NCBI GenBank assembly: GCA_951406725.2
Contig: OX597834.1
Span: 30,876,001-30,940,000, forward strand
Origin: Octopus vulgaris
Taxonomy: Eukaryota
Reading direction: 5' to 3'
DNA length: 64,000 bases
Of this stretch, positions 32,962 to 33,909 are shown one piece after another. Made by a program: the position numbers and the translations under genes. The notes under the pieces were generated by a model that worked only from the letters and a program-made list of their open reading frames with translations, did no database searches and was not told the origin of the DNA. The number at the start of each line of letters is the position of its first letter. Positions within the stretch are counted from its first letter, which is position 1.

Positions 32962-33909
32962 ATGACGAAAATGGTGAGCAGTTTAGAGACAAACAACGAT
33001 TTTAATTTCTCGGACAAAGGTAACAATTCTACTTCGGTGATAAACAGGTCAAAGAATAGAAAGAGCTGTTCAGAACAACAGCAACAACAACAGCAGCAAC
33101 AGCAACAACAACAACAACAACAAAAATCCTCAAACAAAAGAACTGAAAAAGAGCTCCAGGAACCAAGCAATGTTCACGTCTTGATCCTCTTCATCCTCTT
33201 CCTTCTGTTTGTGTTTTTTTACACTGGTCTCCGCGTCTACCTTCGACCGACGAAAGCCCCAATACCAGTCACTGTGAATACTTTCCAAGAGTACCTCACT
33301 GAAATACAACAGATAAAGTACATGTACTTCACTCAGACAGAGGAATTCTGGAACATTCTGAAAGACAATGCGCAGCAGTTTCTGATGACTGGCAAAGAAC
33401 CTAAAACCCCTGCGGCCGTCATGGTGATCCTTCCTGCTGGTGAGAGGCAGTTGGCTGTTTGCCTCTTGGATTACTGGTCGCAAATCATGAACAGACTTTT
33501 GAGTAGCCAAATCACAGACTCAGCTTTAGAACCGGTCGTGGACGGCTCTAGTGTAACGTCTTACAAACCTGGACACCAAAGGACAATAATATCCGAACAG
33601 ATTCAACAGTTAGTCGCAAGTGGTCACAAGTCGGTCACCATCAGCAGTTGGGAGAATCTGCACATTGAGACGTTGCAGCTCCTGTGCAGTATATGCGAGT
33701 CAACAAATTTGTTCTACCAGCAAGTGACGGTGGTATTTCTGCTGGAGATACCAGATGAAGAGCATCACATTGATAATAAGTCAGAGGTACATTCCTACTT
33801 GGCTTCAATCTGGAGTCATTTAAAAGATGATCAAGTTAAGAATTTACTACATGTAATAGCAAACAATATCGCCTTTCTAACACCGGACGATACTTTCATG
33901 GGTTGTTAA
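32962..33909 (+). CDS. Torsin-1A-interacting protein (LAP1/LULL1)-like type II membrane protein; terminal, possibly sole, coding exon
   Basis: Only long high-complexity ORF; first ATG at 32962, frame open from 32887. Polar N-terminus with Q16 (33076-33123), TM helix VHVLILFILFLLFVFFYTGL, then motifs matching the LAP1C domain in order: YFTQTEEFW (~FPxQxxxLW), PAAVMVI, VCL, VVDG, GHKSVTISSWENL, ICESTNLFYQQVTVVF (~YCDHENAxFKxV), YLASIW, DQVKNLLHVIANN and a C-terminal GC. Candidate splice acceptors end at 32845 and 32910. Confidence 0.85.
   Translation: MTKMVSSLETNNDFNFSDKGNNSTSVINRSKNRKSCSEQQQQQQQQQQQQQQQQKSSNKRTEKELQEPSNVHVLILFILFLLFVFFYTGLRVYLRPTKAPIPVTVNTFQEYLTEIQQIKYMYFTQTEEFWNILKDNAQQFLMTGKEPKTPAAVMVILPAGERQLAVCLLDYWSQIMNRLLSSQITDSALEPVVDGSSVTSYKPGHQRTIISEQIQQLVASGHKSVTISSWENLHIETLQLLCSICESTNLFYQQVTVVFLLEIPDEEHHIDNKSEVHSYLASIWSHLKDDQVKNLLHVIANNIAFLTPDDTFMGC

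What the first reader, a model, noticed from the sequence alone, without database searches (positions are those of the whole stretch)
32962..33909. LAP1/LULL1-like torsin cofactor that appears to lack the arginine finger
The luminal domain keeps the LAP1C architecture, including the internal Cys (codon 33460) and a C-terminal Cys. Where LAP1/LULL1 have L-x-S-R-I, carrying the arginine supplied in trans to torsin ATPases (human LAP1 R563, LULL1 R449), this protein reads LLHVIANN, with Val at codon 33853-33855. The YCDxENA motif has also diverged, to ICESTNL. The frame is intact with no stops. Inference: a non-activating paralog that could act as a torsin decoy/inhibitor or have a torsin-independent role.
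Basis: partly seen in the sequence, partly recalled or inferred. Interest (0 to 1): 0.75.

Follow-up and report, generated by a model that had tools for sequence, protein, structure and literature searches.

The report
Octopus torsin activator without its finger
This intact, spliced octopus gene is a relative of the proteins that switch on the dystonia enzyme torsin, but it has valine where they carry the switching arginine, so it likely cannot switch torsin on and likely does another job in the membrane, while two sister genes in the same genome keep the arginine.

Summary
Observation confirmed. The 315-aa ORF is intact, spliced to an upstream exon and its model matches LAP1/LULL1 (Z 22). At the finger column 153 of 155 homologues have Arg; this protein has Val. 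The genome holds two more LAP1_C genes, both with LLSRIANN, and three torsins. New here: a probable orthologue from an unnamed organism also lacks the Arg (Gln; reciprocal best hit, tree 93/98, alternatives not rejected). Five of five substitutions in a related organism are synonymous (p about 0.002), but the same contig has a frameshift. The protein keeps 11 of 14 conserved apolar positions but only 2 of 9 conserved polar ones. So it likely lost most of the torsin-facing surface, which weakens the decoy idea; it shares a membrane-proximal motif with its orthologue. Best reading: a non-activating paralogue with a likely torsin-independent membrane role (0.5); decoy 0.25. Binding is untested. 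New variant of a known kind; interest 0.5.

The parts
30650..30732 (+). upstream exon (83 nt), 5' untranslated for the main ORF; holds short upstream ORFs of 23, 29, 19 aa and shorter
   Evidence: loose ends of contigs in 3 of 4 runs match its 3' end; AG before, GTAAGT after; one copy in the genome
30733..32845 (+). GT-AG intron, 2113 nt
   Evidence: depth 0 on 32785-32827 in 4 of 4 runs
32846..32961 (+). 5' untranslated part of the coding exon, in-frame TGA at 32884-32886
32962..33909 (+). intronless CDS, 315 aa, LAP1/LULL1-like type II membrane protein (P0001)
33076..33123 (+). CAA/CAG repeat, 16 Gln, in the short N-terminal tail
33160..33252 (+). EPS + single hydrophobic segment (about residues 71-89) + TGLRxYLxP; 14 of 32 residues shared with the Arg-less orthologue, 0-5 of 32 with five Arg-bearing relatives
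33214..33220 (+). run of 7 T; one contig of coded organism B has one T more (frameshift, product 113 aa)
33259..33906 (+). luminal AAA+-like LAP1_C domain (residues 100-315)
   Evidence: model pLDDT 93.3; 4TVS Z 22.1, 5J1S_B Z 21.6
33460..33462 (+). Cys167, equivalent of LAP1 C424 (disulfide to the C-terminal Cys)
   Evidence: Cys in 133 of 155 homologues; PMC4358337 passages
33685..33720 (+). eroded HxYCDxxNAPxK motif (CSICESTNLFYQ); Cys245 kept, H242, D246, A250, K253 changed
33850..33855 (+). His297-Val298 in place of Ser-Arg (arginine finger column), at the end of the last helix
33904..33906 (+). C-terminal Cys315, equivalent of LAP1 C582

Best explanation
This is an intact, spliced paralogue of the torsin activators LAP1/LULL1 with valine at the arginine-finger position; it likely cannot activate torsin, likely binds it poorly, and is likely kept as a membrane-anchored scaffold in the ER or nuclear envelope for a partner other than the ATP-bound torsin. 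Shown: ORF, splice, one hydrophobic segment, Val for Arg, loss of most conserved polar positions with the apolar core and both disulfide Cys kept, two Arg-bearing paralogues and three torsins in the genome. Predicted: LAP1 fold. Inferred: type II topology in the ER/nuclear envelope; loss of the finger in a common ancestor with the Gln-bearing orthologue; further erosion of the torsin face on the octopus branch; the conserved membrane-proximal segment and the helix at 266-288 as the new working surface.
For: Arg in 153 of 155 homologues, Val here. Polar conserved positions kept 2 of 9, apolar 11 of 14, Fisher p 0.013; only 1 of 154 other rows keeps as few as 2, 147 keep 6 or more. The review PMC5425593 (passages) says the conserved face of LAP1 is the torsin-binding face. 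Confident LAP1-like model. Arg-bearing paralogues P0002 and P0003 can supply activation. Selection: 5 of 5 CDS substitutions in organism B synonymous, p 0.0018; an unselected ORF would rarely stay open at this divergence (0 of 2000 simulations at 37% identity); the orthologue cluster differs at 10 of 36 N-terminal but 6 of 246 other positions. Residues shared only with the orthologue cluster in the membrane segment (14 of 32), helix 266-288 (12 of 23) and C-terminus (9 of 13), not in the CD loop (2 of 13) or finger helix (3 of 14). Finger-independent functions of LAP1 exist: R442A rescues nuclear movement (PMC5350507 passages).
Against: No partner is identified. 'Polar conserved = torsin-facing' is inferred from residue type, not from coordinates; two of the seven changes are conservative (K207R, D246E). 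The eight LULL1 contact residues named in PMC4999309 do not discriminate: the window protein keeps 0 of 8 but the canonical paralogue P0002 only 2 of 8 (hand mapping). Helix 266-288 corresponds to a LULL1 helix that touches torsin, so its conservation may also mean retained binding. Orthology with P0009 is not proven (AU p 0.26, 0.33, 0.098, 0.053). One contig of organism B has a frameshift. No orthologue came up among named Octopus sinensis, O. bimaculoides or Argonauta proteins, while the canonical paralogues did.
Confidence: 0.5

Rival explanations
1. Decoy: it still docks on the activator face of ATP-bound torsin and, lacking the finger, blocks activation and oligomer disassembly by the two canonical paralogues. 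A variant is a dedicated pair with the divergent third torsin (P0175), whose Walker B reads ILDD, so that no finger would be needed.
For: Fold, disulfide Cys and Cys245 kept. The orthologue P0009 loses the Arg but keeps 6 of 9 polar positions (K207, D211, H242, D246, K253, Q125), the pattern expected of a decoy. Helix 266-288 is conserved between the two and carries LULL1 contacts R412-R419 (PMC4999309 Results). LAP1 R563G disturbs cells more than wild type (PMC7773337 passages), although that paper ties this to chromatin binding. P0175 exists in the genome.
Against: The octopus protein keeps 2 of 9 polar positions and 17 of 33 family-conserved columns, joint lowest of 156 rows; it shares only 2 of 13 residues of the CD loop and 3 of 14 of the finger helix with its orthologue.
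Confidence: 0.25
2. A redundant duplicate in slow decay: long kept, now under relaxed selection in octopods and being lost.
For: Longest branch among the near relatives (1.16-1.23 changes per column); frameshift in the one contig of organism B; no orthologue among named octopod proteins; six upstream ATGs in the spliced leader.
Against: 5 of 5 substitutions synonymous (p 0.0018), ORF open at about 40% identity to its nearest relative, apolar core selectively kept; spliced contigs in 3 of 4 runs from different studies.
Confidence: 0.15
3. It still activates torsin weakly without the Arg, by docking alone or through His297.
For: R563A/R449A lower but do not abolish activation (PMC4358337); R442A rescues one cell function (PMC5350507); His297 is next to the finger column.
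Against: His297 stands in the Ser column, not the Arg column; Lys293 is shared with the canonical paralogues and is no gain; the rest of the conserved polar set is eroded; no His at this place in the orthologue.
Confidence: 0.1

Closest known systems
LAP1 / TOR1AIP1 (PDB 4TVS) and LULL1 / TOR1AIP2 (PDB 5J1S chain B); Pfam PF05609 LAP1_C
   Same: One hydrophobic segment followed by a nucleotide-free AAA+-like domain; model matches at TM-score 0.76-0.78, Z 22.1 and 21.6, rmsd 2.8-3.0 A over 205-209 residues; Cys pair C167/C315 and C245 (LAP1 C424/C582, C496) kept; no Walker motifs.
   Different: Val for the 'strictly conserved' R563/R449; SRI becomes HVI; YCDHENA becomes ICESTNL; short poly-Gln N-terminal tail of about 70 aa in place of a long nucleoplasmic domain; 14-16% identity; Pfam score under the cut-off.
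Canonical octopod LAP1_C paralogues (P0002, P0003 in this genome; P0004-P0008 named O. sinensis, O. bimaculoides, Argonauta hians)
   Same: Intronless coding exon, same contig C21 (about 11 Mb away), 34-35% identity in the luminal domain, IANN after the finger column.
   Different: They keep Arg, KxxxD, HxxCD, A and K; they form their own clade (100/100) that the best trees do not place next to this protein.
Engineered finger mutants LAP1 R563A/R563G/R442A, LULL1 R449A
   Same: No arginine at the finger.
   Different: They keep the full torsin interface; this natural protein has changed most of the conserved polar set as well.
Unnamed vertebrate Arg-less third relative (scan note e1-9220811, elephant shark; unchecked AI note)
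   Same: Reported loss of finger and contact surface with a conserved membrane anchor.
   Different: Another lineage; this protein nests among invertebrate, octopod-like sequences (clade 100/100), so the losses would be independent. I did not fetch or test that sequence.

Membership tests
LAP1_C family (LAP1/LULL1 homologues) | Pfam PF05609 at the gathering score | tested here: not met
   20.8 bits whole protein, 22.3 bits luminal part, cut-off 26.8; it is the only family hit by the luminal part; the orthologue scores 43.1 and the paralogues 37.5 and 29.9
LAP1_C family (LAP1/LULL1 homologues) | Sequence homology to LAP1/LULL1 through intermediate sequences | tested here: met
   profile of 146 rows hits 4TVS_A E 2.7e-48 and 5J1S_B E 3.7e-45, nothing else; 34-35% identity to two paralogues that pass the cut-off
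LAP1_C family (LAP1/LULL1 homologues) | AAA+-like fold without C-terminal helical domain | tested here: met
   predicted model pLDDT 93.3, top matches LAP1 and LULL1, Z 22.1/21.6 against 16.3 for the next; a prediction made with a family alignment
LAP1_C family (LAP1/LULL1 homologues) | Single membrane segment before the domain | tested here: met
   one 19-residue window of mean hydropathy 2.58 from residue 71; topology and location inferred
LAP1_C family (LAP1/LULL1 homologues) | Cys pair tying the C-terminus to helix 1 | tested here: met
   C167 and C315 in the conserved columns; the bond itself was not measured on the model
Torsin activators (functional class) | Arginine finger (R563/R449) | tested here: not met
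   Val298; Arg in 153 of 155 homologues
Torsin activators (functional class) | Conserved polar set (Q, R, K, D, H, D, K, R, N) | tested here: not met
   2 of 9 kept
Torsin activators (functional class) | ATP-dependent binding to torsin and stimulation of its ATPase | not testable with these tools
   needs co-purification and ATPase assays
Active AAA+ ATPases (ClpB/Hsp104, torsin) | Walker A and B motifs | tested here: not met
   strand 1 is followed by LPAGERQL, strand 3 by SSW; the Clp matches are fold-level only, 9-14% identity

The most novel reading that the evidence does not exclude
An old cephalopod lineage of disarmed torsin cofactors, caught in two stages: the Gln-bearing orthologue is a natural torsin decoy, and the octopus protein has moved on to a new partner. 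With the vertebrate case noted elsewhere in this scan, LAP1-fold proteins would have shed their finger repeatedly and been kept, which would give natural separation-of-function tools for the torsin system and point to a second, unknown job of the LAP1 fold.
Probability: 0.25. Interest if true: 0.75.

Novelty: new variant of a known kind. Interest (0 to 1): 0.5.

Why it matters
The arginine finger of LAP1/LULL1 is described as strictly conserved (PMC4358337) and is the only known switch for torsins, whose failure causes DYT1 dystonia. What torsins act on, and what LAP1's luminal domain does besides activation, are open questions. A natural, apparently selected paralogue without the finger, next to two normal activators, either is the first natural torsin inhibitor or reveals a torsin-independent use of the fold; both can be tested with standard assays. 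My searches of the held library found no paper on it (torsin + LAP1 + cephalopod: 0; TOR1AIP1 + octopus: 1 unrelated listing; LAP1 + LULL1 + torsin + pseudoenzyme: 0); most subscription papers are not in that library.

Tried and rejected
Complex prediction of the luminal domain with own torsin P0173, ATP and Mg: verdict 'no answer', score 0.00, alignments not used, controls not folded; not used as evidence either way. No RNA holder listed: none of the 20 runs that hold the stretch is on record as RNA; the case for transcription rests only on the spliced contigs. Sequencing error at the finger: rejected, 4 of 4 runs agree. N-terminal extension from the upstream exon: rejected, an in-frame TGA lies between acceptor and ATG; my first splice coordinates were off by 1-2 bases and its upstream-ORF lines are superseded. 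RNA editing restoring the Arg: GTA cannot become an Arg codon by A-to-I; CAT (His297) could become CGT but no such letter is listed in 4 runs (contigs drop rare variants). A compensating indel in the poly-Gln repeat for organism B's extra T: rejected by reading the sequence, the shifted frame hits TGA before the T run. Torsins with their own finger: not seen; the three octopus torsins have Leu where human TorsinA has Leu (the register to ClpB is recalled). First homologue search with the protein alone found nothing. AU tests did not reject alternative placements. Brown et al. 2014 is not held, nothing seen; one search opened an unrelated paper. Earlier scan notes by sequence and by place: none.

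Full report
The sequence. 32962-33909 (+) is one open frame of 315 codons in repeat-rich animal DNA. The genome has 2.8 billion bases in 227 contigs, and a sister gene's protein differs at 4 of 271 positions from a protein labelled Octopus sinensis, so this is an octopus. The protein has a 70-residue tail with 16 Gln, one hydrophobic segment from about residue 71 and a 216-residue C-terminal domain.

It is transcribed and spliced. Twenty of 24 listed runs from 7 studies hold the stretch. I laid 4 of them, from 4 studies, whose kind is only guessed as RNA. All 4 cover the exon from 32844-32849 onward (the poly-Gln repeat was skipped) and have depth 0 on 32785-32827. In 3 of 4 the loose end matches a unique 83-base exon at 30650-30732, which gives a GT-AG intron of 2113 bases. 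The leader is non-coding for the main frame and has six upstream ATGs.

Family. Pfam LAP1_C is hit under its cut-off. The own genome has two more matches on the same contig, about 11 Mb away, 34-35% identical, which pass the cut-off. A profile of the three found 520 proteins at E up to 0.001, of which the best 150 were listed; I saw only those 150. A profile of 146 rows hits only LAP1 and LULL1 among solved structures. The predicted model (pLDDT 93.3) matches 4TVS and 5J1S chain B at Z 22.1 and 21.6, next best 16.3 (Foldseek TM 0.76-0.78). Homology is not in doubt.

The finger. In an alignment of 155 other sequences (the 150 hits plus 5 named or own octopod proteins) the column of Val298 is Arg in 153, Gln in P0009 and Lys in P0126. 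The profile's Arg lies on LAP1 R563 and LULL1 R449. Val298 ends the last helix of the model, where PMC4358337 (passages) places R563. No Arg or Lys is gained nearby: Lys293 is shared with the canonical paralogues. The list is biased towards Arg-bearing proteins, since two of three profile rows have Arg and 370 weaker hits were not seen.

The torsin system is complete without it. Both paralogues read LLSRIANN and LCDTTEA and have counterparts named O. sinensis, O. bimaculoides and Argonauta hians. Three torsin genes lie on C7, C9 and C2. P0173 and P0174 have Walker A GETGTGKN, Walker B FIFDE and GCK; P0175 is divergent, with ILDD at Walker B. These counts are lower bounds.

A probable orthologue also lacks the Arg. 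P0009 (282 aa, unnamed ENA record; cluster of 5, one member on 112 short contigs) has Gln at the finger in 5 of 5 members. Its best match in this genome is the window gene (208 bits against 134 and 118). It shares 14 of 32 residues around the membrane segment with P0001, against 0-5 of 32 for five Arg-bearing relatives, and the ending DxFMGC. Trees join the two: SH-aLRT 96 (quick, 40 rows), 86/91 (luminal only, 20 rows), 93/98 (with membrane segment, 18 rows); rows were the top hits, the rest left out for time. AU tests do not reject other placements (p 0.26 and 0.33; 0.098; 0.053), and P0001 has a long branch. The organism is unknown; that it is a cephalopod is my inference from a 100/100 clade whose only named members are octopods. 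A search with both proteins returned P0009 alone, and no named octopod orthologue came up in three searches, which is a result against wide retention or a gap in annotation.

Selection. One contig pair from coded organism B differs at 5 CDS positions of 881 laid; all 5 are synonymous, p 0.0018 under a neutral model. The same contig, depth 18, has one extra T in the run at 33214-33220, which would end the protein at 113 residues. I could not tell allele, fixed loss or artefact apart. In simulation an unselected frame stayed open in 1 of 2000 runs at 54% identity and 0 of 2000 at 37% (no indels, all change on one branch). Within the P0009 cluster the N-terminus differs at 10 of 36 positions and the rest at 6 of 246. 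The lineage has been under selection for most of its history; its present state in octopods is less sure.

What was lost. Of 33 columns conserved in 70% of the family, P0001 keeps 17, joint lowest, median 28. Of the 23 that are also kept by near Arg-bearing relatives, it keeps 11 of 14 apolar but 2 of 9 polar (p 0.013); P0009 keeps 13 of 14 and 6 of 9. The lost ones are R128, K207, D211, H242, D246, K253 and R298, two by conservative change. PMC4999309 (Results read whole) names helices 0, 2, 4, 5 and E385, in the CDHEN loop, as contacts; PMC5425593 (passages) says the conserved face is the activator face. I had no coordinates, so the link from polar and conserved to torsin-facing is inference. 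The named vertebrate salt bridges do not discriminate (0 of 8 here, 2 of 8 in P0002, hand mapping).

How it likely works. A duplicate of the activator lost the finger while other copies kept activating torsin. The Gln-bearing form keeps much of the face and may still dock. The octopus form keeps a folded, disulfide-capable domain on a conserved membrane anchor but has changed the face, so it most likely serves another partner in the ER or nuclear envelope (0.5). Decoy (0.25), slow decay (0.15) and weak activation (0.1) remain. Finger mutants lose much but not all activation (PMC4358337), LAP1 takes torsin oligomers apart by triggering hydrolysis (PMC5638581 passages), and LAP1 R442A still supports nuclear movement (PMC5350507 passages), so finger-independent roles have precedent.

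Novelty. Seven searches of the held library listed no description of a natural Arg-less LAP1/LULL1 or of cephalopod torsin cofactors; I judged from listings and the passages cited. Figures and supplements (for example the alignments of PMC4358337) were not seen and may show other Arg-less rows. Brown et al. 2014 was not available. Verdict: real, new variant of a known family, function not shown; interest 0.5.

Noticed in passing
G000:C21:41909901-41917988 (L002, L003): The two Arg-bearing LAP1_C paralogues lie about 7 kb apart, tail to tail, with a C2H2 zinc-finger exon between them (L002 1-847 reads as repeated KPYxC units); one has a long N-terminus (LAP1-like), one a short one (LULL1-like).
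   Followed up: partly
P0009 cluster, finger column: Gln at the finger: a CAA/CAG codon could be recoded to Arg by A-to-I editing, common in coleoid cephalopods (recalled). All 5 cluster members show Gln, so there is no support; raw reads would tell.
   Followed up: partly
G000:C2:120158834 (L008, P0175): Divergent torsin with an N-terminal hydrophobic segment, Walker A GGVGVGKT and Walker B ILDD (no Glu); resembles Torsin-4A from memory; likely inactive.
   Followed up: partly
G000 C7 and C9 (L006, L007): Two intronless torsin genes, 83% identical; none lies on the contig of the three LAP1_C genes, so the torsin-activator linkage noted for other animals (e1-9955121) is not seen here.
   Followed up: partly
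P0013, P0014, P0015: A related clade keeps the Arg finger but lacks both disulfide cysteines (C167 column Q/H, chain ends before the C-terminal Cys).
   Followed up: no
P0007, P0008 (Argonauta hians): The two Argonauta paralogues have nearly identical luminal domains and group together, unlike the Octopus pair: gene conversion or a separate duplication.
   Followed up: no
P0126: 600-aa homologue with LLSKF at the finger and YCRHES for YCD, while its relative P0111 keeps LLSRV and YCD: another possible disarmed copy.
   Followed up: no
window 32846-32850: Loose ends in runs X2 and X16 show a second leader form with 6 extra bases near the exon start (allele or other splice form); X2 has more loose letters (96) than the 83-base exon, so a further upstream exon probably exists.
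   Followed up: partly
PMC11065284 (passages): Bisegmented fish and amphibian coronaviruses encode a LAP1C-like domain; the passages do not say whether it keeps the arginine finger.
   Followed up: no
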